A DNA stretch of 64,000 nt from Myxococcota bacterium (GTDB lineage Bacteria > Myxococcota_A > UBA9160 > UBA4427): assembly GCA_965250285.1 (NCBI GenBank), contig OZ252299.1:4224001-4288000 (forward strand), written 5' to 3'. The stretch's first letter is position 1. Every line of letters starts with the position of its first letter. The notes below the pieces were generated by a model. That model searched no databases. It saw only the letters and a list, made by a program, of their open reading frames with translations, and had not been told where the DNA came from. Shown piece by piece: positions 29,164 to 48,022 of the stretch. The position numbers were made by a program, and so were the translations under genes.

Positions 29164-30432
29164 TCAGCCCCGCGACTGCGCCTGCTCGAAGCGCGCGCGC
29201 TGGAACGTGATGCAGGTCGAGTCGGCGGGGATCTCGTCGAGCTCGGTCGAGACCAGCTCGGGCGTGATGCCGAGGGCGTTCGCTGCCGGCCTCAGCTTTT
29301 CTAGATCGAATCCGTACAGATTCGCCGCGTTCTCCCCCAGCATCATGCGCACCTCGTGCTCGGTCACGTCCGAGAATGCGAAGCGCATGTTCTCGCGCGA
29401 GTAGGGGTAGCAGCCTTCGTAGTGCGGGTAGTCGTTGCCCCAGAGGATCCGATCGAGCCCGACCGTGTCGCGGCCCTTGATGTCGCGGGGGCCTGGGAAG
29501 CTCGCGCCGTACCAGCAGTTTCGCTTCGCGTAGAAGCTCGGCGGCTCCTTGAGCGCGGGATCCTTGCTGGTGTCGATCTCGCCGATCGCGCCGGCCTTCC
29601 ACGCCATGTACATGGCGTCCATCTGACGCATCAAGCCCGGCGCCCAGGCCGAGCCCGACTCGGTCAGGATGAACCGCAGGTTCGGGAAGCGTTCGAAGAC
29701 GCCCCCCATGATCAGCGTCGTGTACCCGCGCTGAACATAGAAGGGCATCTCCATGGCCCAGAGCGCCTTCGAGCCCTGGTGCTCGCCGTACTCGGGCGAG
29801 CCCTGGCCCGAGTGCTGATTCATGACCAGCGCGTGATCCTGGATCACGGCCCAGAGTCGATCGTAGTCGGGGTGGTTGAGCGGCTTGAGCCAGTGTTCGC
29901 TCGGCGACGGCAGGGGCAGCAGCACCCCCCCGCGCAGCCCGTGCTCAGCGATCCACTGCACGTCTTCGATCGCGTCGTCGATGTCGTTCAGGTGAATCAG
30001 GCCGATGCCCGCCCGCCGATCGGGCTGCTCGGCGCAAAACTCGGCGAGCCAGCGGTTGTGTGCGCGGGTGCCCGCCAGGGCATGCTCGTACTCGTCGGGT
30101 CGAGGCGGCGGCGAGACGTGGAAGGCGCTCTTGTAGAAGGGCGGGACCGTGTTCGGGTAGATGACCTCGCCGACGACGCCGTCGCTCTCGAGGTCGTTCA
30201 TGCGGAGATCCGAATCCCAGTTCTTCAGCTTCTTCGAGCCGACATGCTTCTTCGCCGGGTTCTTGTAGCCGCCGCGCCAGGCGTCGAAGTCATCGCGATA
30301 CTTTGGGTCGAGGTAGTCGCGGTAGCTGTCGATCGATGCGCCCGCGTGCGTGTCGGCGGTGATGCAGACGTAGGGTGCGTTCTCACCGGTCGGCGTGGGC
30401 GTCGTCGAATGCGGGGTCGGGGCGGCGGACAC
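29164..30432 (-). CDS. Amidohydrolase family (Amidohydro_2) protein
   Basis: ITADTHAG, DGVVGEVIYPN, HNRWLAEFC, GVFERFPNL, WGNDYPHYEG. Confidence 0.9.
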   Translation of the reverse strand: MSAAPTPHSTTPTPTGENAPYVCITADTHAGASIDSYRDYLDPKYRDDFDAWRGGYKNPAKKHVGSKKLKNWDSDLRMNDLESDGVVGEVIYPNTVPPFYKSAFHVSPPPRPDEYEHALAGTRAHNRWLAEFCAEQPDRRAGIGLIHLNDIDDAIEDVQWIAEHGLRGGVLLPLPSPSEHWLKPLNHPDYDRLWAVIQDHALVMNQHSGQGSPEYGEHQGSKALWAMEMPFYVQRGYTTLIMGGVFERFPNLRFILTESGSAWAPGLMRQMDAMYMAWKAGAIGEIDTSKDPALKEPPSFYAKRNCWYGASFPGPRDIKGRDTVGLDRILWGNDYPHYEGCYPYSRENMRFAFSDVTEHEVRMMLGENAANLYGFDLEKLRPAANALGITPELVSTELDEIPADSTCITFQRARFEQAQSRG

Positions 30433-30596
30433 GGTGGCTCTCCTGCTCGGTGGGCGCGATCCGGTCGAGATTCTACCCCGACGATCCGGCGGCCGGGCAG
30501 CCGCGCCCCGGCGTGCCGTACGACTTCGAGAGAAGTCTTCGCCATACAGTCGACGTCACCGAGGTGCGTGTCGCCGAGACGGCCATCTCGCGCCGT

Positions 30597-31499
30597 TCAG
30601 CGCCCGAACCCGGCCGCGTTCAGCGCACGCACCAGCCCCTCGGGAGTGTCGGGCGAGCCCATCAGCAGCGCCGGCGTGCAGATCGTCGCGACGCTCTCGC
30701 GCTCGCCATCGCTCACCTTGAGGGTTCGCGGCAGGTAGACATCCGTGTCACCGGCGAGGATCGAGAAGAGGCGCTCGTCCTCGACGTCGAGCAGACCGAG
30801 ATCGTCATTGGCCTGCACCGCCTTCAACATCACGTGCTTCGCGTTCTTCGGATCGGTGATCCAGGCGACGGCGTCGAGTCCGCCGTTCGCGAGCTTCACG
30901 AGCGCGGCTTCGCCGTCGGTGTAGTCGACCCCGGCGTTCGACTGTTCGGGCAGCACGCTCGCCAAGTGGATCCAGGTCTCGGCCATGCCGCCCTCCTCGG
31001 GACCGACGCCGACGAGCGCCTCGCGATCCCCGACGTTGCGCGCGAGATCGTCGAACGAGTCGATCGGCGACCCCTCGAGGTACGCGACGAAAACGCACTC
31101 CTCGGCGAGCAGCGCGATGATGTCGAGGGGCGCGAAGACCGTCGGCTCTTCGGCGATGCGACTCGCGAACACGTCGCCCTGCGCCAGTGCGAGCTCGACC
31201 TCTCCTTCGGAGAGCAGATCGAGGTTCTCGGTCGAGCCGGCCGTGGGGCGGGACGTGATCTTCCACGACACCACGCGGGCATCGATCTCTTCGCCATAGC
31301 GTTCATAGCTGCCACCGGCGACGCCGCTCGCGATCGTCACCTCGCTGATCACCGTCTCGCTCTCGGTCGGCTCCGCAACGGCTGCCTCGGGCGGCGGGGC
31401 TGCCTCGGGCGGCGGCGTGGTCGGCTGATCTCCACACGCGACGAAACCGAGAACGAACACACAGATGAGAACGATCGGGCGGCGAAGAACGAAGGGCAT
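30597..31499 (-). CDS. TAXI-family solute-binding lipoprotein
   Basis: FVA-C lipobox, IASGVAGGSY, TAGSTENL, LALAQGD, GVGPEEGG. Confidence 0.78.
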   Translation of the reverse strand: MPFVLRRPIVLICVFVLGFVACGDQPTTPPPEAAPPPEAAVAEPTESETVISEVTIASGVAGGSYERYGEEIDARVVSWKITSRPTAGSTENLDLLSEGEVELALAQGDVFASRIAEEPTVFAPLDIIALLAEECVFVAYLEGSPIDSFDDLARNVGDREALVGVGPEEGGMAETWIHLASVLPEQSNAGVDYTDGEAALVKLANGGLDAVAWITDPKNAKHVMLKAVQANDDLGLLDVEDERLFSILAGDTDVYLPRTLKVSDGERESVATICTPALLMGSPDTPEGLVRALNAAGFGR

Positions 31500-31686
31500 G
31501 CGAAACCTCGTCTGGATGGAGCGCAGCGCTCGAAGGGGCGCCGCGCTCGATTGAACACGGCACTCGATGGGGGCTGCGCTCGGTCGCACGCGGCGCTCGC
31601 CCACCGAGTCCGCGCGGTATGTCGCTGCTCGGTTCGGTCGCTCGATGCTAGCTTGTGTCCCCGGGGCCCGGGGTGACCCCGTCGGC

Positions 31687-31980
31687 ATGCTCGAGCCATC
31701 GACTGACCGACCGCCTGCACGCGCCCTCGATGTACCCGACCCACGAGCCCAACCGTTGCCGACGCACCCCACCCAACAGGCCGAAGAGGCGATCCGACGC
31801 ATCGCGGCCGACGCGCGCGTCCCTCTGCCGCCGGCGCGGCCGGTGCCGGGCGAGTGCTGCGATCGCGGCTGCGATCCGTGTGTCTGGGACTACTGGCGGC
31901 GGGGCCTCGAGCGCTGGGCCGATCGCCATGGGTTGACGGACCAGGTCGCGCGGGTGCTCGCACAGGACGCCGAGCGCTGA
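31687..31980 (+). CDS. Small stand-alone oxidoreductase-like domain (Oxidored-like) protein
   Basis: PPARPVPGECCDRGCDPCVWDYW..LERW; start uncertain. Confidence 0.75.
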   Translation: MLEPSTDRPPARALDVPDPRAQPLPTHPTQQAEEAIRRIAADARVPLPPARPVPGECCDRGCDPCVWDYWRRGLERWADRHGLTDQVARVLAQDAER

Positions 31981-31990
31981 GACCGGACGC

Positions 31991-33499
31991 TCAACCGCGC
32001 GCCTTCGGTTCGGCGGCGACGATCTCCTGCGCACGTGCTTCGACGCGCGTCCCCTCGAAGAACCCGGGATTGAGTCGCGTATAGAAGCGGATCGGGTTGT
32101 CGCAGACGAACGCACGGAAGTCGTCGTCGTCGATCAGCTCTTTCTCGACCAGCTCGTAGGCTTCGGGCAGGATCTCGCCCATGTCGCGGACATCCCAGTG
32201 ACCCATGTCCGAGCTGAACATCGCATTGAGTCGCATGCCGAGGGCGTTGAAGCGACGGTCGAACGCGAGCGCCACACCCGGGTCGTCGGCCTCGCAGCCG
32301 AAGAAGAATGCGTCGACGAAGCGCGCTTCGAAGTCCCCCTCATGCTCGATGCCGCAAGCCTCCCACTCGTCGAGAAACGGGGGCTCGGGCTCGAGCTTCG
32401 CGAGCGCATCGGCGAGCCCCGGTACGTCGGCATGAAAATGAGCGTCACCGTACGCAGCGAAGAGCTCGACGATCAGGTCGAGATCGAGGCGCTTCGGGTC
32501 GAGGTGTGAGATCGACTCGCAATTGCGCTTCTCCCAGTGGCCGACGATGTCGGCGAAGAGCTGACACGCCCACGATACGCCCCCCTCGAGCAGCCCGAAG
32601 CCGAGCTCGGGGAACCGCTTCGTGACGCCCCCCATGAAGAGCGCACGACACTGCGCCTCCATGCTCGCACCGAACGATCCGATGTGGTTCGCCATGTAGT
32701 TCGAGACCGATCGCCGGCTGCCCCAGCCCATGCCGGGCGTGTGTGATGCAGGCACGACACCGAGCTCGACGCAACGCCGCCAGAACGGATCGTAGTCGTG
32801 GGCGCTGTCGAGCGAGAGACAGTCGAGCCACTCCCCCGACCCGGATCCCCACGTGGGCAGCTTCGGATCGCGCGGCCCCGCGGCGCCCGTGATCGGGCGA
32901 TGGACGAGACCGTTGATCATGATCGCCTTCAGCCCGAGTTCGCCCACGGCATGCTCGAGTTCGGCGATCGCCTCGTCGGGGGTGTTCATCGGAATGTGCG
33001 CCGCCGGCGTCATCCGGTCGGCATAGGGCGCATAGACCTCGGCGTTGAACGCATTGAGCGCGCGACACGCGACCTGGCGCACCTCGTCGTCGCGGATCGC
33101 CGTGGTGGTGAGCGTGCGGCTCCCATAGAGGACCGCGAAATCGAGACCGAGGTCGTCGAGCCGCTCGTACATCAGCTTGGGGATGTGCGACGTCGCCCGG
33201 TCGAGGCTGTTCGCCGCGGGCAGCGACCACCAGGACGGCCGAGTCGCCCAGTTCGCACGCCGCTCTTCCCAACTGAGGCGACTCCACGGCCGCAGCACCA
33301 TCTCGTCGAAGTCCATGCCGCCCGAGCGGCGAAACTTCTCGGCGAGGTCACCGCCGCCGATCTGCTTCACGTAGTCTTCGAAGAAGGGCAAGAAGACCGG
33401 CGCCGTCTCGATGATGTGACCGTCGGCGTCGACGACCGGGTGGCCGAGCTTCGCGCGCAGACGGCCCGCGGGCGTGTCTCCGGTGCCGATCTTCATCAC
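31991..33499 (-). CDS. Amidohydrolase family (Amidohydro_2) protein
   Basis: VVDADGHIIE, YDPFWRRCVELG, GGVTKRFPEL, FFFGCEADD, FSSDMGHWD. Confidence 0.88.
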   Translation of the reverse strand: MMKIGTGDTPAGRLRAKLGHPVVDADGHIIETAPVFLPFFEDYVKQIGGGDLAEKFRRSGGMDFDEMVLRPWSRLSWEERRANWATRPSWWSLPAANSLDRATSHIPKLMYERLDDLGLDFAVLYGSRTLTTTAIRDDEVRQVACRALNAFNAEVYAPYADRMTPAAHIPMNTPDEAIAELEHAVGELGLKAIMINGLVHRPITGAAGPRDPKLPTWGSGSGEWLDCLSLDSAHDYDPFWRRCVELGVVPASHTPGMGWGSRRSVSNYMANHIGSFGASMEAQCRALFMGGVTKRFPELGFGLLEGGVSWACQLFADIVGHWEKRNCESISHLDPKRLDLDLIVELFAAYGDAHFHADVPGLADALAKLEPEPPFLDEWEACGIEHEGDFEARFVDAFFFGCEADDPGVALAFDRRFNALGMRLNAMFSSDMGHWDVRDMGEILPEAYELVEKELIDDDDFRAFVCDNPIRFYTRLNPGFFEGTRVEARAQEIVAAEPKARG

Positions 33500-40390: not shown

Positions 40391-41191
40391 CTACTTGCGA
40401 AACTGCTTGAAGTCGGGGTCGCGCTTCTGCATGAACGCGGTGACCGCCTCGATGTTCTCGGGCGACCCGGCGAGCCGCATCATCTCGGCGTCTTCGATCT
40501 CGCGCGCATCGGCGATGTTCTGCAGATGGGTGCGCTGCAGCGTGCGTTTGATCGCGACGAGCGACGACACCGGCCAGCGCGCGATCTCGCGCGCCTTCTC
40601 GAGCATCGCCGGGAGCGCTTCGCCCTGGGGCAGCACGCGGGCCACGATGCCGAGGTCGAGCGCACGCGGGGCATCGATCCATTCGGCGGTGAACATGATC
40701 TCGTTGGCCCGCTGGCGACCGATGTTCATCTGCAGCACGTAGCTGCTCGCGATCTCGGGAACGAGACCGAGATTCGCGAACGGCAACCGCATGCGCAGCC
40801 CTTCGCCCGCGTAGGCGAAGTCAGCCGCCATGGCGATGGTCGCACCACCACCGATGGCGACGCCTTCGACCGCCGCGAGCAACGGCTTCGCGCACGCAAA
40901 GATCGAGTCGACGCACGCGAAGAACCCGCTCGGCTTGCCGTCGGCGCGCGGCTCGGGGGGCGCACCGCCGAACGAGCCGAGATCGACCCCCGACGAGAAG
41001 ATCCCGCCCGCGCCGGTCAGGACGACGACGGCCACGCGCGGGTCGGCGCTCGCTTCGTCGAGCGCACTCGCGAGCTGATCCCACTCCTGGTCCCGAAACG
41101 CGTTCTTCTTGTCGGGGCGGTTCAACGTGAGGAGCAGCACGCCCTCGTCGTCGAGCTCACGCAGCAGGGTGGGGGCGTCTTCGGTGGTCAT
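40391..41191 (-). CDS. Enoyl-CoA hydratase/isomerase (crotonase) family
   Basis: LNRPDKKNA, FSSGVDL, KPLLAAVEGVAIGGG, PFANLGLVPE. Confidence 0.92.
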   Translation of the reverse strand: MTTEDAPTLLRELDDEGVLLLTLNRPDKKNAFRDQEWDQLASALDEASADPRVAVVVLTGAGGIFSSGVDLGSFGGAPPEPRADGKPSGFFACVDSIFACAKPLLAAVEGVAIGGGATIAMAADFAYAGEGLRMRLPFANLGLVPEIASSYVLQMNIGRQRANEIMFTAEWIDAPRALDLGIVARVLPQGEALPAMLEKAREIARWPVSSLVAIKRTLQRTHLQNIADAREIEDAEMMRLAGSPENIEAVTAFMQKRDPDFKQFRK

Positions 41192-42315
41192 GGAGTCTTC
41201 GGTCCTCTGAGCGATCCATCGCTCTCGCGCGGCTTCATCACTTCGTCGGCCACCGGCTCGCTCGCCGAGTCGTCTTCGGGGTCGACCGCAGCGTCGCTCT
41301 CTCGGTCGGCCTTGCGGCCCTTCGCCTCTTCTTCGTCGATGTCGACGATGTCGTCGCCAGTGTAGCCGCACGCCTGCTTGGGCTCTTCGAGTAGCTTCTT
41401 CGCGAAGTAGATCTCACGGCGCGCATCTTCGGTCGCGGGGACGAGCGCGATCGTCTCTTCGAGCACGACGCGACCCTCGGCGAGGTGATCCTTCTTCTTC
41501 TTCGATGTCCCGATGCACAAGAGCTGCGTCCCCAGCTCAACCTGGTAGTCGAGCCGGTTCGGATGCAGCTCGAGCGCTTTGCGGCTGTGCTCGAGCGCCT
41601 TCCACTTGTCGCCGCGCACACCCACGAGCCACTTCATCAAGAAGAAGTCGGGGACCAGCCGATTGAAGATCGCGCTCGAGTAGTAGAGGTTGCCGAGGCT
41701 CGAGTTGTCCGCCGAATCCTGATGCGTGGGCTGCAGCTCGAATGCGCGCTCGAGCAGCTCGTTCATCTCGGGCAGCACGCGCACCGCGTCGACGATGCCT
41801 CCGGTGGTCAAGACGCGACCCTTGGCGATGAACTTCCACAGCATGCACTCGCCGCAGTTCGGGTCACGCTCGATCGCGAGCTCGAGCAGCGACTCGGCGC
41901 GCTTGAACCGAATGAGCTTCTCCTCCTTCTCTTCGAGAGGCAGCTGCTCGCTCGACAGCCACAGCGCGCGGGCGGCGCGCCAGTGGCCGGCGGGATTGCC
42001 CGACGGCGACTCGGCGACGCGCTCGAAGTACTCGCTCGCGCGCTCGAGGTCGCGGGCGATCGCATACTCATCGCGCCCCTCGTCGTCGGTCAGCACGCGC
42101 AGCTCGATCTCGGTCGCCTGGTTCCAGTAGCGCTCGACGTCTTCGGGGCTGAGCTCGTCGGGGGGCGCCTCGATGACGGGCGGCGGGCGGAGATCGCGCG
42201 GCTCATCGTCGGCCGTCGCGGACCCGACAGCGAGCGCGGCGACCGCCACCACCAACATGGGGCGCGCCCACACTGCAGCCCTGCTCTTCGCAGCGACTCG
42301 CCGGATCTCCCTCAT
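41188..42315 (-). CDS. Exported TPR-like helical-repeat protein
   Basis: Signal-like segment; AIERDPN, AFELQP, ALELHPN TPR ends; 4-bp overlap with the crotonase; start uncertain. Confidence 0.65.
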   Translation of the reverse strand: MREIRRVAAKSRAAVWARPMLVVAVAALAVGSATADDEPRDLRPPPVIEAPPDELSPEDVERYWNQATEIELRVLTDDEGRDEYAIARDLERASEYFERVAESPSGNPAGHWRAARALWLSSEQLPLEEKEEKLIRFKRAESLLELAIERDPNCGECMLWKFIAKGRVLTTGGIVDAVRVLPEMNELLERAFELQPTHQDSADNSSLGNLYYSSAIFNRLVPDFFLMKWLVGVRGDKWKALEHSRKALELHPNRLDYQVELGTQLLCIGTSKKKKDHLAEGRVVLEETIALVPATEDARREIYFAKKLLEEPKQACGYTGDDIVDIDEEEAKGRKADRESDAAVDPEDDSASEPVADEVMKPRESDGSLRGPKTP

Positions 42316-42437: not shown

Positions 42438-43211
42438 TCAGACGGTTCGGCCTCGACTCGCGCGTTCGGCCTCGACCAGCGTCTGAGCACGGCGATAGCT
42501 ATCGAGGTTGCCGATGTCGTGGCGCTCGCCGCGCATCGCATGATGAAAGATCGGCGCGCGCGAAACGCACCACGCGACGAGTGATCCGGGCGCATCCGCG
42601 TTGGGTTGGGCTTCGAGCAATCGCGGGATCTCGGCCAGCGCATCGTCTTGCCAGAGATAGAAGGGCGGACAGACGCGGTCGCCCGGCGGCTCGTCGGCCT
42701 TCTCGACGAATTCGACCAGGCGGCCGTCGCTCGGGTCGATCACCGCGACCCCGCTGCGCTGGCGCGCCGCGAGGTCGGGCTCGACGTAGGTCAGAACGAG
42801 GTTGCGCGGTCGTCCACGAAAGTCGTCGACGAAGGCACCGAGGTCGAAGCGCACCAGATTGTCGGCTGCGGCGACGAAGAGCGGCCCAGTCAGCTCGGCA
42901 CGTTCGATCGCGAGCTGCAGGTCACCCAGCGCACCGAGCCGGGTGTCGTTGGTTTGGGCGCCATCGTCGATGATCTCGAGCTCGGCGCGCGGCCACTGGC
43001 CCCGCGCGCGCGCCCACCACGCCTCGAAGTCGGCCGCGAAGCGTCCGTTGCTGACGAGGACGAACTCGCGCAGCCCGGCGTCGCGCACGCATCGATCCAT
43101 GAGATCGTCGAGCAGGGGGCGCCCACCGACGTCGAGCAGCGGTTTCGCCTGATGTTCGGTCAGCGGGTGCAGTCGAGTCGCGAAGCCGGCACACAGAAGA
43201 ACGGCCTTCAT
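42438..43211 (-). CDS. Sugar-1-phosphate nucleotidyltransferase (NTP_transferase)
   Basis: LLCAGFATRLHPLT..KPLLDV, AADN, FVEK, DAPG, DIGN. Confidence 0.9.
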   Translation of the reverse strand: MKAVLLCAGFATRLHPLTEHQAKPLLDVGGRPLLDDLMDRCVRDAGLREFVLVSNGRFAADFEAWWARARGQWPRAELEIIDDGAQTNDTRLGALGDLQLAIERAELTGPLFVAAADNLVRFDLGAFVDDFRGRPRNLVLTYVEPDLAARQRSGVAVIDPSDGRLVEFVEKADEPPGDRVCPPFYLWQDDALAEIPRLLEAQPNADAPGSLVAWCVSRAPIFHHAMRGERHDIGNLDSYRRAQTLVEAERASRGRTV

Positions 43212-44449
43212 GAAAAGGCTCCGGCGGCCGATCGCTCGACGCGCACGCCGTCATCACTCGCCACGACGAAGACGCGGGCACGCGCCTCGAGCTCGGGAAA
43301 GGCATGCACGAACGCCGCCCGCACCGACTCGACGGCAGCGTCGGCCCGCGCCGGTTCGACGAGGGCGATCGAGCAGCCGCCAAAGCCCGCTCCGCTGAAG
43401 CGGGCCCCGTAGACACCGGGCGTGTCGACGAGGATCGACTGCAGCAAAGCGAGCTCGCGGGAGCCCGTCTCGTACTGGTGCAGTGAGCTCTCGCAGGATG
43501 CCTTCATGCGCTCGCCGAATCGCACCAGATCACCGCGTCCCCAGTCTTCGAGGCCCGCATGCACTCGGGCGCGCTCGCCAAAGAAGTGCTGGGCCCGGCG
43601 GGCGAGCTCGGCCGGGATCGAGTCGACATGGCGCTCGAACACGGCGTCGTCGAGGTCGCCGAGCCGAGGCCGTCGGTCGACGGGCGGAGCGAGCTTGGCG
43701 GCTTCGAAGAGCGCCTCGGCCGCGCGGTGGCACTCTTCGACACGGTCGTTGAAGCCGGAGGACGCCAGTCGCCGCTCGATGCCCGTGAACGCGACCAGCA
43801 CGCGGGGCATCTCGACGCCTTCGCCCAGCGCGTGCGACGCCCAGGTCTCGGTGGCCGAATCGATGAAGAGCAGCTCATTGCGTCTCGCCCCTTCGATCGA
43901 AGCCGGGTCGAGGATCCCCGACGCCACGCCGACGATCTCGTTCTCGACGCGGCGCGAGAGGGCGACCCGTTCGTGGGGCGTGAGCGCGACCTCGTTGGCG
44001 TCCGCAAAGGCCGTCAGGTACGCGAGCAGCACCGAGGCCGACGAGCTGAGACCGCTGCCGGGCAACGTGCCCGCGAGGCGACCGACGAGCCCGACCGTGG
44101 CCGACTCGGCGCGAGCGCGAAAAAGCGCGGCGGCACCGCATGCGTAGACACCCCAGTGCGGCCCGTGCGCGCGCGGGTCGACGGCCGAGAGATCGAACTC
44201 GACCGGGCCTTCGAAGTCGGCGCTCGTGAGCGAGACGCGGCCATCCCGAGTCGGCACGTAGGCCAGCAGCGTGTGCGCGTCGATCGCCATGCCGAGCATC
44301 GAACCGCCCTGATGGTCGACGTGCGCGCCGATCGGACAGACGCGGTAGGGCGAGACGACGACGCGAACGTCTTCCTCGGAGACACCCGCCCTCTCCGCCA
44401 CGTCGCCGACGAGCCGCGCGCGCTGCGAAGCCCCCGCTGCGGAGGTCAT
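43208..44449 (-). CDS. GHMP sugar kinase, galacturonokinase-like
   Basis: PYRVCPIGAHVDHQGG, PGSGLSSSA, GILD, YGARFSGAGFGG; ATG overlaps the upstream TGA. Confidence 0.88.
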   Translation of the reverse strand: MTSAAGASQRARLVGDVAERAGVSEEDVRVVVSPYRVCPIGAHVDHQGGSMLGMAIDAHTLLAYVPTRDGRVSLTSADFEGPVEFDLSAVDPRAHGPHWGVYACGAAALFRARAESATVGLVGRLAGTLPGSGLSSSASVLLAYLTAFADANEVALTPHERVALSRRVENEIVGVASGILDPASIEGARRNELLFIDSATETWASHALGEGVEMPRVLVAFTGIERRLASSGFNDRVEECHRAAEALFEAAKLAPPVDRRPRLGDLDDAVFERHVDSIPAELARRAQHFFGERARVHAGLEDWGRGDLVRFGERMKASCESSLHQYETGSRELALLQSILVDTPGVYGARFSGAGFGGCSIALVEPARADAAVESVRAAFVHAFPELEARARVFVVASDDGVRVERSAAGAFS

Positions 44450-45963
44450 CAAGCGCTCCGCGAACTCGACTCGAGCGCGGGTTCGGCGCTGGCCGCGTCT
44501 CGGGCCGGGCCGCCGGTCAACGCCGGCGACTTCGCCAGGTGCCTCGCGAAACCGTTCATCACCGCGAGATGCGCCCACGCCTGAGTCGATTGATACAGGC
44601 GCCAGGGCAGCGCCGGCGGGTAGTCGTGAATCGCCGCGAGCAGCGCGCGACCGCCGAGCACCTCGCGCAGCTCGAAGCGCGCCTCGCCGCTGTGACCGCG
44701 CCGCAGCAGCCGGCCGGCGACGATGTCCATCACGAGCCGGTCTTCGGTGCTGCGTTCGGGCAGGCTGCGCAGCACGATCATCGGGCCCCGGATGCCGGTG
44801 ATACCGAGGTGAGCATCGCCATTGTCGAGCACCCGCACGCGAATCAGCGGTCGCCAGAACGTCGGCAAGAAGCGAACGTACTCGGCGGCCGCCCAGGCCG
44901 CCGTTCGACCGGCCGGCAGCGGCAGGCGCTGGACCGAACGCACGCGGCGCGAGGCCTTCAGCTGAGCCCGCGAGCGCGCGTCGAGCCGAATGCTCGAGGT
45001 CGGCTCCTGCGGCAGCCGGGCCTCGTCGACCGCACCCTCGACGGCCTCCTCGAAGCTGAGCGCCCCGTCGGCGATCTCGTCCTGCAGAGGATTCGGCTCG
45101 GCGATGAGGTCGTGCTGCAGCGACCGAACGAGCGGCGCCACGAGCGTGGCCGGCGCCTTGCCGAAGAACATCACCCAGAGCGTCGAGAGCCTCGGCGAGA
45201 AGAGCGAGACGTTCAGCATGTAGAGCCGCCGGTTCAGCACGCCAGCCACTGCGTCCATCATCTCGCGATACGTCAGGACGGTGGCGCCTCCGATGTCGAA
45301 GGCCCCCGTGAAGCGGTCGGGCTCGGCCAAGGCACATCCGACTGCGCGCACCACGTCGGCGAGTGCGATCGGGTGTGACCGCGAATCGGTCCAGCTCGGC
45401 AACACCATGAAGGGCAGACGACGCACGAGATTGAGCAGGATCCAGAGCGACGGCCCACCCGGGCCGACGATCAGACCGGCGCGCAAGGCAGTGACGGGCA
45501 CGCCGCGACTGCCGAGCGCCTCGGCGACCTCCGCGCGGCTGCGCAGATGCGGCGAGGCCGCCGAGCCCTTCGGGAGGAGACCGCCGACGTACACGATCTG
45601 ACGCACGCCGGCTTTGGCCGCAGCCCGGGCGAAGTTGTCGGCCAGGAGCAGATCGAGATCCGAGAAGCTGCCCTGCACGAGCCGCGCGCTCGGCTGCATC
45701 GAGTGCACGAGGTAGATCGCACGGTCGGCGCCTTCGAGGGCCTGCTCGAGCTCCTGCAGCCGAAACAGATCTGCGGCGCGCCACTCGACGCCCGGCGGCG
45801 AGTCTTTCGGCGGCGTCTCGGATCGCGACAGGCCGATCAGGTGATAGCGGTCGCCCAGCGCTTCGAGCAGCGCGCGGCCGACGAAGCCGCGTGCGCCGGC
45901 GACGACCAGCGTCTCTTTCTCGGGAGGCGCGGCCGCGCCCTCGATGGAACCCGTCGCCGTCAT
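44449..45963 (-). CDS. Atypical SDR / NAD(P)-binding protein (YbjT-like)
   Basis: VAGARGFVG, YLVHSM, SPHLRSRAEV, LRAGLIVG, PIALADV. Confidence 0.8.
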   Translation of the reverse strand: MTATGSIEGAAAPPEKETLVVAGARGFVGRALLEALGDRYHLIGLSRSETPPKDSPPGVEWRAADLFRLQELEQALEGADRAIYLVHSMQPSARLVQGSFSDLDLLLADNFARAAAKAGVRQIVYVGGLLPKGSAASPHLRSRAEVAEALGSRGVPVTALRAGLIVGPGGPSLWILLNLVRRLPFMVLPSWTDSRSHPIALADVVRAVGCALAEPDRFTGAFDIGGATVLTYREMMDAVAGVLNRRLYMLNVSLFSPRLSTLWVMFFGKAPATLVAPLVRSLQHDLIAEPNPLQDEIADGALSFEEAVEGAVDEARLPQEPTSSIRLDARSRAQLKASRRVRSVQRLPLPAGRTAAWAAAEYVRFLPTFWRPLIRVRVLDNGDAHLGITGIRGPMIVLRSLPERSTEDRLVMDIVAGRLLRRGHSGEARFELREVLGGRALLAAIHDYPPALPWRLYQSTQAWAHLAVMNGFARHLAKSPALTGGPARDAASAEPALESSSRSA

Positions 45964-45988: not shown

Positions 45989-46747
45989 TCAATCTTCGAG
46001 CACGCTCGGGTCGCGGCGAATCTCGCGCCGCGCCATCGCCTCGAAGAGGAACGGGAAGCCGTTGCCGTCGATCATCGCGCCGGTGCGATCGGCGATCTCG
46101 CTCGGCATGGGGTGCCCGCCACCGAGCGCCTCCATGTGCCAGGCCTGCCGGCACCGCCATTCGAGGGTCAGGCAGCGCAGATGGGCCTGGCGCAGATCGC
46201 GCGCCACGATGAAGACCCCGTGATTCGCGAGCAGGGCCCACTTGTGGTCGCCGAGCGCCGTCACCGCCGCGTTCGACTCGTCGTCGTCGTCGACCGTGCC
46301 ACCGTACTCGTCGAACACCGCGATGTCGCCGTCGACCTGGGCCGACGTCTGATCGTAGATCGGCGGCACGCGACGCGCGTTGGCCCACAGCGTGCCGTAG
46401 CGACTGTGGTTGTGAATGATCACCTTCACGTCCGCGCGTGCTTCGTGCACGGCGAGATGCAGGCCGATCGCCGGGGTGACGTTCCAGTCGCCCTCGAGCA
46501 CCTTGCCCTCGCGGTCGACACGCAGCACGTCACCGGCCGTGATCTCGTCCCACGCGAGCTCCCAGGGATTCACCAGCAGCGTGCCATCCGGTTGGAGCAC
46601 CGTGATGTGGCCCGCGATGTGGTCGTCGTACCCTTCCTGAAAGAGCATGCGACACATCAACGCGACTTCGGCGCGGGGCGAGAGCTCGGGCAGCAGCGGA
46701 TAGCGCCCGGGGCGCGGAGCCAGCTGCTTCATCAGATCATCGGTCAT
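45989..46747 (-). CDS. Class II aldolase/adducin family protein
   Basis: AGHIT, LHLAVH, IIHNHS, LLANHG; AGGAGG RBS. Confidence 0.9.
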   Translation of the reverse strand: MTDDLMKQLAPRPGRYPLLPELSPRAEVALMCRMLFQEGYDDHIAGHITVLQPDGTLLVNPWELAWDEITAGDVLRVDREGKVLEGDWNVTPAIGLHLAVHEARADVKVIIHNHSRYGTLWANARRVPPIYDQTSAQVDGDIAVFDEYGGTVDDDDESNAAVTALGDHKWALLANHGVFIVARDLRQAHLRCLTLEWRCRQAWHMEALGGGHPMPSEIADRTGAMIDGNGFPFLFEAMARREIRRDPSVLED

Positions 46748-46804
46748 GACGACCTCCTTGTGAGACGCGCTCGCGCGCGAGCTGCAAAGACGCAACGTCG
46801 CCGA

Positions 46805-48022
46805 TCAGGGCAGGCAGACCTTGGGCAGCGGGTGCTTGTAGAGCTTCGACGCGTTCTCGTGCGCGATCATCCGAATCTCTTCGTCGGGCAGCTCGTGCAG
46901 CACGTCGTACATCACCTGCTGCGTGTCGGGCCACGTGCCGTCGCCGTGCGGGTAGTCGGATTCGAACAGGATGTTCTCGACCCCGATTCGATGCCGGGTA
47001 CACACGGTCGATGCGTCTTCGATCATGCAGAACCAGAAGTTGCGCTTCAGCACCTCGGTCGGACCGAGGTCCTTGTCGGGCCAGCCGCTGCCGTAGCCCG
47101 ATCGGCTCATGATGTTGTCGAGGCGATCCATCAGCATGGCCACCCAGCCGATGCCGCCCTCACTCATCGCGATCTTGAGCTCGGGATAGCGCGCGGGCCA
47201 GCCGCTCCACAGCCACTCGGCGCACGCTTCGACCGCCATCGGCCCGAACATCGTCGCCCCGAGCTCGAGCATGGGCGCACCGGCCGGCATCGCCGGAAAG
47301 CCCGACGCGCCGATGTGCAGGTTCAGCACCGTCTCGGTCTCGGCACACGCGCGAACGATCGGCTCCCAGCAGGCGTCGAATACCGGCGGGTAGCCGAGCT
47401 TGTGCGGCTGTTCGGGGAACGTCACGGCGGTGAAGCCGCGCTTGGCGTTGCGGCGGATCTCCTCGGCGCCCTTCTCGGGATCGGACAGGAACGTGATGCC
47501 CAGCGGAACGATGCGGTCGGGATACTTCTGGTACCACTCTTCGAAGAGCCAGTCGTTCCAGGCCCGCATCGAGGCGAGGCCGAGCTCGGGATCCTTCGCC
47601 TCACTGAAGAGCGTGCCGCCGAAGCCGGTCACGCCCGACGGGAAGTTCACCGACGCGTACACGCCGTTGATGTCCATATCCTTGATGCGAGCGTCGATGT
47701 CGTAGCAACCGGGGCGCATCTCTTCGTAGCGCGCGGGCTCGAAGCGATGGTCTTCTTGATCGCGACCGGCCACGCACATGAAGCCCACCTGAAAGTAGGG
47801 CTGCCCCTCGAACGACCAGACCTGGTGGCCTTCTTCGGTCTCGACGACGTGGGGCGCGAGATCACCGAACTTCGCCGGCATGCGCCCCTCGAAGACGTCG
47901 GGCGGCTCCATCAGGTGATCGTCGACCGAGATCAGCGTGTAGTGCACCTGGCGCGGGTCGGGATCGGGAAGCAGCGGCTTCGTCACGGGGCGCTTGATGC
48001 CGAGTTTGATGACGCGGGGCAT
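46805..48022 (-). CDS. Amidohydrolase family (Amidohydro_2) protein
   Basis: ISVDDHLMEP, DARIKDMD, RAWNDW, LNLHIG, FESDYPHGD. Confidence 0.9.
   Translation of the reverse strand: MPRVIKLGIKRPVTKPLLPDPDPRQVHYTLISVDDHLMEPPDVFEGRMPAKFGDLAPHVVETEEGHQVWSFEGQPYFQVGFMCVAGRDQEDHRFEPARYEEMRPGCYDIDARIKDMDINGVYASVNFPSGVTGFGGTLFSEAKDPELGLASMRAWNDWLFEEWYQKYPDRIVPLGITFLSDPEKGAEEIRRNAKRGFTAVTFPEQPHKLGYPPVFDACWEPIVRACAETETVLNLHIGASGFPAMPAGAPMLELGATMFGPMAVEACAEWLWSGWPARYPELKIAMSEGGIGWVAMLMDRLDNIMSRSGYGSGWPDKDLGPTEVLKRNFWFCMIEDASTVCTRHRIGVENILFESDYPHGDGTWPDTQQVMYDVLHELPDEEIRMIAHENASKLYKHPLPKVCLP

What the first reader, a model, noticed from the sequence alone, without database searches (positions are those of the whole stretch)
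42438..44449. Plant-type galacturonokinase-like kinase coupled to a nucleotidyltransferase: candidate bacterial uronic-acid salvage module
Seen: the GHMP kinase has PYRVCPIGAHVDHQGG where classical galactokinases have PGRVNLIGEHTDY. Its stop overlaps the start of an NTP_transferase gene (43208-43211). Knowledge, from recall: Arabidopsis galacturonokinase has PYRICPLGAHIDHQGG and PGVYGARFSGAG, and the Glu-to-Ala change is linked to accepting a C6 carboxylate. Inference: the pair may convert GalA or another uronate to sugar-1-P and then NDP-uronate. That salvage route is known in plants, whereas bacteria normally catabolise uronates by isomerase or oxidative pathways.
Basis: partly seen in the sequence, partly recalled or inferred. 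Interest (0 to 1): 0.75.

Follow-up and report, generated by a model that had tools for sequence, protein, structure and literature searches.

The report
Bacterial uronic-acid salvage gene pair
Two overlapping genes encode a bacterial member of the plant galacturonate-kinase family and a sugar-activating enzyme, which likely work together to turn free galacturonic (perhaps also glucuronic) acid into a nucleotide-sugar building block for surface polysaccharides, a route for which I found tests only in plants and fish.

Summary
Confirmed: a 413-aa GHMP kinase (44449-43208, minus) overlaps by ATGA a 257-aa nucleotidyltransferase (43211-42438). The kinase falls with tea-plant galacturonokinase and outside galactokinases (100/100); the genome has a separate true GalK. 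The family is bacterial and widespread, with plant enzymes nested inside it, so 'plant-type' is a loose label. The transferase family accompanies the kinase in 56 of 80 genome loci. In gut Bacteroidota and Clostridia the pair sits beside a UDP-glucuronate-4-epimerase-like gene (39 of 80), often among capsule genes. A sister clade of the transferase is adjacent or fused to glucuronokinase-like kinases. Best reading (0.68): uronate to uronate-1-phosphate to UDP-uronate. The window enzyme has Phe where plants have Tyr, which by recall could admit glucuronate. Against: no assay; 26 of 44 clostridial transferases have no such kinase; Planctomycetota kinases lack the transferase; the probable zebrafish relative of the transferase was almost inactive. 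JGI labels already call bacterial copies galacturonokinase, and this scan noted the same pair on other genomes before. I found no bacterial test in the papers searched. New variant of a known kind.

The parts
43208..44449 (-). Galacturonokinase-family GHMP kinase, 413 aa. Keeps catalytic Arg36 and Asp181; Ala42, His46 and Gln47 as in the plant enzyme; Phe233 where the tea enzyme has Tyr263
42438..43211 (-). Sugar-1-phosphate nucleotidyltransferase, 257 aa, GalU/RmlA fold but a separate family; start overlaps the kinase stop by 4 bases
44449..45963 (-). Atypical SDR / NAD(P)-binding protein, 504 aa, whose stop overlaps the kinase start by one base. Probably co-transcribed, but next to the kinase only in the same-genus genome, so not counted as part of the conserved module

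Best explanation
The kinase likely phosphorylates a free hexuronic acid, D-galacturonate and possibly also D-glucuronate, at C1 with ATP, and the overlapping transferase likely converts that sugar-1-phosphate with a nucleoside triphosphate (inferred to be UTP) into UDP-uronate for cell-surface glycans. Shown: gene layout, family membership, conserved pairing and uronate-related neighbours. Inferred: the substrates, the nucleotide, and the use of the product. In this genome uptake would be through a TRAP transporter encoded elsewhere (C1:1165496-1168247), and a Uge-like epimerase (C1:5982290) would interconvert UDP-GalA and UDP-GlcA.
For: Kinase: 39% identity and 246 bits to Camellia galacturonokinase, against 139-177 bits to 9 canonical-motif GalKs. 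In a 41-row tree, 10 GalKs form one side at 100/100 and the window kinase lies on the other with the plant enzymes. It scores 167 on TIGR00131 (cut-off 226.65), as does the tea enzyme (166.5), while the genome's other kinase passes at 295. Ala42, His46 and Gln47 occur in 118 of 119 top homologues. Pairing: the transferase family lies within the locus in 56 of 80 GTDB loci and 48 of 80 metagenome loci (40 of the 49 with at least 1 kb downstream). It is found in the same 4 of 201 Bacteroidales genomes as the kinase and in all 18 of 200 Clostridia that have the kinase, 17 on the same contig within about 1.2 kb. Uronate context: an epimerase-like gene lies in 39 of 80 loci and Ugd in 11 of 80. That epimerase is in 14 of 18 clostridial kinase carriers against 5 of 46 non-carriers (kin are not independent). 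GH28 lies in 2 of 80 loci and TRAP DctP in 4 of 80. Of 57 longer transferase homologues, 33 carry the epimerase domain, 5 Ugd, 6 a GHMP kinase and 3 an aldose 1-epimerase. A transferase clade of 19 rows (SH-aLRT 95) holds all 16 rows adjacent or fused to a second kinase type, whose nearest Atlas cluster is named putative glucuronokinase. The window transferase is in a 12-row clade, all kinase-adjacent. The own genome has no UxaC or UxuA match, so the isomerase route for catabolism was not found (95% complete).
Against: No activity was measured. 26 of 44 clostridial genomes with the transferase have no kinase of this family, and only 2 of 43 stand-alone genomes had a strong glucuronokinase-like match, 4 more an intermediate one, so the transferase family is not confined to uronate kinases. 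The kinase lacks the transferase in 0 of 6 Planctomycetota loci having it and within 1.5 kb in 3 of 6 related carriers (G025, G031, G039). The epimerase link is confined to Bacteroidota, Bacillota and one spirochaete; it is absent from loci of the window's own clade and was not found in pair-carrying G017 or G023. The own genome has no GH28 match, so the source of uronate is unclear. The zebrafish pyrophosphorylase domain, a probable relative, gave only a trace of UDP-GlcA after 70 h (PMC3938481). The epimerase and TRAP ligand assignments rest partly on recall.
Confidence: 0.68

Rival explanations
1. Same two-step chemistry, but the window clade's real substrate is another C6-altered sugar (an aminouronate, D-fucose, L-arabinose or a 6-sulfo sugar), or the nucleotide is not uridine.
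For: The window clade (12 rows, 100/96) is separate from the plant-containing clade. It has Phe233 (106 of 119 top homologues) and Pro182 where plants have Tyr and Gln, and it has no epimerase neighbour. Identity to the only labelled plant enzyme is 39%.
Against: The whole C6-binding signature (Ala42, His43, Asp45, His46, Gln47) equals the plant one. Phe233 also occurs in clostridial enzymes that sit beside the epimerase (L045, L066, L075). Members of the clade lie beside TRAP transporters (L116, L231, L245).
Confidence: 0.15
2. The kinase is a uronate kinase, but the transferase is a broad sugar-1-phosphate uridylyltransferase (a stand-in for GalU or plant USP) or a poor enzyme; the pair mainly recycles uronate from the cell's own glycan or nucleotide-sugar turnover rather than scavenging it.
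For: Stand-alone transferases are common. The own genome has no GalU over cut-off and no GalT, and no GH28.
Against: Kinase-adjacent and stand-alone transferases mostly form different clades. The own genome has a UDPGP-family enzyme (PF01704) that could supply UDP-glucose. GH28 and TRAP neighbours point to outside supply in some lineages.
Confidence: 0.12
3. It is an ordinary second galactokinase with a Gal-1-P uridylyltransferase, bypassing the missing GalT.
For: GalK fold (TM about 0.84 to L. lactis GalK); best NCBIfam matches are GalK models; no GalT match in the genome.
Against: Below every GalK cut-off; outside the GalK clade at 100/100; the Glu of the GalK GEHTDY motif is Ala; a true GalK exists elsewhere.
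Confidence: 0.05

Closest known systems
Plant galacturonokinase GalAK (Arabidopsis At3g10700, EC 2.7.1.44) followed by UDP-sugar pyrophosphorylase USP/SLOPPY
   Same: Same kinase family and sugar-binding signature; same proposed two-step route to UDP-GalA (PMC8636097 passages).
   Different: Bacterial; the second step would use a 257-aa GalU/RmlA-fold enzyme, not the USP family; genes are translationally coupled; Phe replaces the plant Tyr (233 vs 263 in the tea enzyme).
Zebrafish glucuronokinase / putative pyrophosphorylase DrGKUP (PMC3938481)
   Same: A uronate kinase joined to a roughly 260-aa nucleotidyltransferase. The paper's prokaryotic relatives of that domain come from Prevotella, Alistipes, Sphaerochaeta, Clostridia and haloarchaea, the same groups, and three of the same haloarchaeal species, that P0002 retrieves.
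   Different: The kinase here is GalAK-type, not GlcAK-type, and the genes are separate. I could not obtain the zebrafish sequence, so kinship of the transferase domains was not tested by alignment. The zebrafish domain was nearly inactive in vitro.
Classical galactokinase GalK (L. lactis 1PIE, human GALK1; TIGR00131)
   Same: Fold, ATP motif, catalytic Arg and Asp.
   Different: GEHTDY becomes GAHVDH; Tyr becomes Phe at 233; below the cut-off; separate clade; paired with a pyrophosphorylase rather than GalT.
Bacteroides fragilis Fkp fucose salvage (recalled, no call)
   Same: Kinase plus pyrophosphorylase feeding an outside sugar into capsule synthesis; the gut copies of this pair lie among capsule genes.
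   Different: Different sugar, nucleotide and protein families; Fkp is one fused protein.

Membership tests
Galacturonokinase (GalAK) family | Groups with plant GalAK and apart from GalK | tested here: met
   31 rows with the Camellia enzyme against 10 GalKs, 100/100. The plant reference is database-labelled, not the assayed Arabidopsis protein.
Galacturonokinase (GalAK) family | PYR.CP.GAH.DHQ sugar-binding signature with Ala in place of the GalK Glu | tested here: met
Galacturonokinase (GalAK) family | Tyr at the C4-hydroxyl position (Arabidopsis Tyr250; its role is recalled from Yang et al. 2009, paper not held) | tested here: not met
   Phe233 aligns with Camellia Tyr263. By recall Y250F keeps activity and admits GlcA, so this lowers strict GalA specificity, not family membership.
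Galacturonokinase (GalAK) family | Phosphorylates D-galacturonate | not testable with these tools
   Needs an assay
Galactokinase GalK (TIGR00131 and PRK equivalogs) | Score above the curated cut-off and GEHTDY motif | tested here: not met
   167 vs 226.65 and below all 5 GalK cut-offs; motif is GAHVDH
GalU / RmlA / GlgC / GDP-Man pyrophosphorylase equivalogs | Score above a curated NCBIfam cut-off | tested here: not met
   0 of 18 matched families pass; separate clade from RmlA and GalU, SH-aLRT 98
Sugar-1-phosphate nucleotidyltransferase superfamily (PF00483) | Fold and catalytic residues (G-x-x-T-R, Lys23, Asp117, Glu170-Lys171, Asp232) | tested here: met
   TM 0.74-0.84 to GalU and RmlA structures at 17-25% identity
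Family of the DrGKUP pyrophosphorylase domain | Sequence kinship to the zebrafish domain | tested here: inconclusive
   No animal sequence was retrieved; only taxon overlap and bacterial fusions to glucuronokinase-like kinases
Plant USP / UDPGP family (PF01704) | PF01704 match | tested here: not met
   P0002 matches only PF00483 and PF12804; the genome's single PF01704 match is elsewhere

The most novel reading that the evidence does not exclude
One uncharacterised bacterial nucleotidyltransferase family is the dedicated uronate-1-phosphate uridylyltransferase, serving both galacturonokinase and glucuronokinase. It is the working counterpart of the near-silent zebrafish domain. Gut Prevotella and Clostridia use the pair to build dietary pectin sugar directly into their capsules. 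The window's clade is a natural Tyr-to-Phe dual GalA/GlcA kinase, and plants took their GalAK from a PVC-related bacterium.
Probability: 0.3. Interest if true: 0.75.

Novelty: new variant of a known kind. Interest (0 to 1): 0.55.

Why it matters
Bacteria are usually taken to make UDP-GlcA and UDP-GalA only from UDP-glucose and to burn free uronates (established knowledge). A kinase plus pyrophosphorylase route would give them a direct salvage path, and in gut bacteria a link from pectin to capsule composition. It offers small soluble candidates to settle whether the DrGKUP-type pyrophosphorylase is a real enzyme, a positive control that the zebrafish paper said was missing. It also offers enzymes for one-pot UDP-uronate synthesis, and it places plant GalAK inside a bacterial family.

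Tried and rejected
Yang et al. 2009 (DOI and PMC2755877) and a recalled TRAP structure paper were not held; A41E, Y250F and the ligands of 4N8Y, 4N91, 4OVR, 4MIJ and 4N17 are therefore recall. Paper searches with no bacterial characterisation in their listings: (2 papers; 3; 0; 25 of 70 listed; 8, all plant; 25 of 3,202 listed; 0; 0; swamped by unrelated papers) and 111 were uninformative on novelty. The library lacks most subscription journals; supplements were not opened. Searches for the zebrafish-type fusion among longer proteins returned only bacterial or unnamed fusions. The upstream SDR and downstream 366-aa unknown protein were rejected as module parts: among 227 loci they match only the own and same-genus genomes. 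No sigma-70 promoter was found and terminator-like sites were at chance level (4 vs 3.3). No RNA holder listed. Kinase-transferase fusions P0351 and P0356 are singletons lacking the transferase N-terminus and were treated as probable assembly chimeras. The apparent break in the G017 kinase is an assembly gap. No complex prediction was run, since binding is not claimed. Six weaker Planctomycetota kinase hits (259-330 bits) were not checked for the motif.

Full report
Observation. Both genes are real and at the stated places. The kinase (P0001, 413 aa, 44449-43208 minus) and the nucleotidyltransferase (P0002, 257 aa, 43211-42438) overlap by ATGA. An atypical SDR gene ends on the kinase start codon, but among 227 loci it accompanies the kinase only in the same-genus genome G001, so it is not part of the conserved unit. 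Contigs of three runs from one study show no differences over the listed pieces. The genome's named nearest relatives are Myxococcota MAGs.

The kinase. AlphaFold gives a GalK fold (pLDDT 92.6; TM about 0.84 to L. lactis GalK). Against L. lactis GalK the catalytic Arg and Asp are kept (Arg36, Asp181), the Glu of GEHTDY is Ala42 and its Tyr is His46 (residue roles are established knowledge). The protein is below all five GalK cut-offs, while a second kinase of the genome passes TIGR00131 at 295 bits. A profile search returned plant sequences, one labelled Camellia sinensis galacturonokinase (P0165). P0001 matches it at 39% and 246 bits, against 139-177 bits for 9 canonical-motif GalKs. In a careful tree of 41 rows chosen from the 129, the 10 GalKs are split from the other 31 at 100/100. 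The streptophyte enzymes are sister to Planctomycetota, Verrucomicrobiota and Latescibacterota sequences (99/96), and the window kinase sits in a different clade with Myxococcota, Desulfobacterota-type, Chloroflexota and Acidobacteriota sequences (100/96). With the root on GalK, plant GalAK is nested in a bacterial family; no AU test was run. The GalK rows were defined by motif, not by assay. The family is large: about 3,200 stored stretches estimated in the GTDB collection, and JGI already names members galacturonokinase or galactokinase/galacturonokinase.

One difference matters. The window enzyme has Phe233 where the tea enzyme has Tyr263; Phe is in 106 of 119 top homologues but only 16 of 80 GTDB loci. 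I recall from Yang et al. 2009 that Arabidopsis A41E abolishes activity and Y250F admits glucuronate. The paper is not held and no held paper repeats this, so it is a lead only.

The transferase. It has a GalU/RmlA fold (pLDDT 96, TM 0.74-0.84 at 17-25% identity) with the catalytic residues invariant in 24 aligned members, but passes none of 18 matched NCBIfam models and forms its own clade against RmlA and GalU (SH-aLRT 98, quick tree). An invariant Asn88 lies five residues before the conserved Gly, where RmlA has its base-reading Gln (role recalled), which suggests a pyrimidine nucleotide; UTP is inferred.

Pairing. In 80 GTDB loci fetched by kinase motifs, 56 hold this transferase family; 5 more have another nucleotidyltransferase directly downstream (L007, L016, L048, L055, L078). 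In 80 metagenome loci 48 do. Because the scan patterns include the Ala motif, its conservation in those loci is built in; the pairing is not. Even samples of genomes: Bacteroidales 4 of 201 for each gene, the same four, adjacent or nearly so; Clostridia 18 of 200 with the kinase, all with the transferase; each count includes the centre genome. In the own phylum the kinase is rare (2 of 151 at E 1e-75; 6 of 40 close relatives), so the module is patchy and accessory.

What the neighbours say. An extended SDR lies in 39 of 80 loci and UDP-glucose dehydrogenase in 11, all in Bacteroidota, Bacillota and one spirochaete, often among glycosyltransferase, Wzy and export genes. The SDR's best solved relatives are 5U4Q (E 6e-111, filed as a dTDP-glucose dehydratase) and 6ZL6. 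Reading it as a Uge-type UDP-glucuronate 4-epimerase is my recall of those entries and motifs; PMC11282780 passages describe Uge's reaction. At genome level it is in 14 of 18 clostridial kinase carriers and 5 of 46 others. It is fused to the transferase in 33 of 57 longer homologues, including clusters of 47 and 38 members; many other fusions are singletons and may be artefacts. A second signal is independent of capsule loci: a sister clade of the transferase lies next to, or fused with, a different GHMP kinase (ARVGLLGNPSD motif) in 5 of the 11 own-phylum genomes with the transferase and in Planctomycetota. The Atlas's nearest clusters for that kinase are 'putative Glucuronokinase' and one whose commonest taxon is Streptophyta (automatic names). 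L007 and L237 hold both kinase types around a GalU-like gene. So two different uronate-type kinases recruit the same transferase family. In the window's clade the pair is followed by TRAP genes in L116, L231 and L245, and the own genome has a 58% identical DctP with DctM at C1:1165496-1168247; its top PDB matches are, by recall, glucuronate or galacturonate binders.

The zebrafish link. PMC3938481 (abstract passage, sections 21, 25, 26 read) describes a glucuronokinase fused to a 260-aa nucleotidyltransferase whose prokaryotic relatives are from Prevotella, Alistipes, Sphaerochaeta, Clostridia and haloarchaea. P0002 retrieves proteins from Natronorubrum bangense, Halopiger xanaduensis and Natrinema pellirubrum, all named in that tree (accessions not matched). 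The domain gave only a trace of UDP-GlcA in 70 h. This supports the product and warns that activity may be hard to show.

The host genome. No match for UxaC, UxuA, GalT or GH28, and no GalU over cut-off (95% complete). It has a UDPGP-family enzyme, a Uge-like epimerase at 51% to the gut one and Ugd-like genes. UxaC was also not found in 5 of 5 related carriers, whereas 4 of 5 distant carriers have a strong one. An imported uronate here would have no isomerase route, which fits activation for glycan synthesis.

Against. The transferase stands alone in 26 of 44 Clostridia and in many Planctomycetota, mostly with no glucuronokinase-like gene (2 strong and 4 intermediate of 43), and its holders less often have GalU (9 of 44 vs 11 of 20), so part of the family may be a general pyrophosphorylase. 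The kinase stands without it in Planctomycetota, where a Gfo/Idh/MocA-type gene is the common neighbour (6 of 80 loci), and in 3 of 6 related carriers. The epimerase link does not extend to the window's clade. Nothing was assayed.

Verdict. It works like plant GalAK plus USP, and the kinase is a member of the GalAK family by tree and signature, with a Tyr-to-Phe change. The transferase is not a USP, GalU or RmlA member. I found no bacterial characterisation in the searches listed under Tried and rejected, but database names anticipate the kinase's function, and three earlier notes of this scan describe the same or the sister pair on other genomes; they are not independent support. New variant of a known kind; interest 0.55.

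Noticed in passing
L119-L123, L201, L205-L208, L210, L211; proteins P0305, P0306, P0354, P0355, P0358: Glucuronokinase-like kinases adjacent or fused to the sister clade of this transferase in Myxococcota-related and Planctomycetota genomes.
   Followed up: partly
L007:5923-9459 and L237: One cluster holds a GalAK-type kinase, a GalU-like gene and a glucuronokinase-like kinase; L007 also has a TRAP DctP match upstream.
   Followed up: partly
L173-L182, L192-L204: A stand-alone clade of the transferase family in Clostridia and Planctomycetota, in the latter often just before pilM-like genes; holders often lack GalU. Possible unrecognised housekeeping pyrophosphorylase.
   Followed up: partly
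L018, L025, L026, L065, L068, L077: In Planctomycetota and Verrucomicrobiota the kinase lacks the transferase and lies beside a roughly 390-aa Gfo/Idh/MocA-like gene, with GH28 or TRAP genes nearby; these are also the closest bacterial relatives of plant GalAK.
   Followed up: no
P0216, P0252, P0255: A small branch keeps the family's PYR..HQ frame but has Glu at the Ala42 position, a possible intermediate or reverted specificity.
   Followed up: no
L228:10538-14826: A Lactococcus garvieae plasmid exopolysaccharide cluster carries epimerase, kinase (annotated as two hypothetical ORFs), transferase and nucleotide-sugar dehydrogenase in a row.
   Followed up: no
G000:C1:1698199-1699110 (L111): The genome has a UDPGP-family (PF01704) pyrophosphorylase but no GalU over cut-off and no GalT, although it keeps a true GalK.
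   Followed up: partly
window 41188-42288 (-): Downstream 366-aa protein with a hydrophobic N-terminus and no Pfam or NCBIfam match; also follows the pair in the same-genus genome.
   Followed up: no
window 29164-33499 and 45989-48022 (-): Three Amidohydro_2 genes and a class II aldolase-family gene flank the region, with pyruvate kinase, a BioA-like aminotransferase and a bestrophin-like gene; no link to the pair was found.
   Followed up: no
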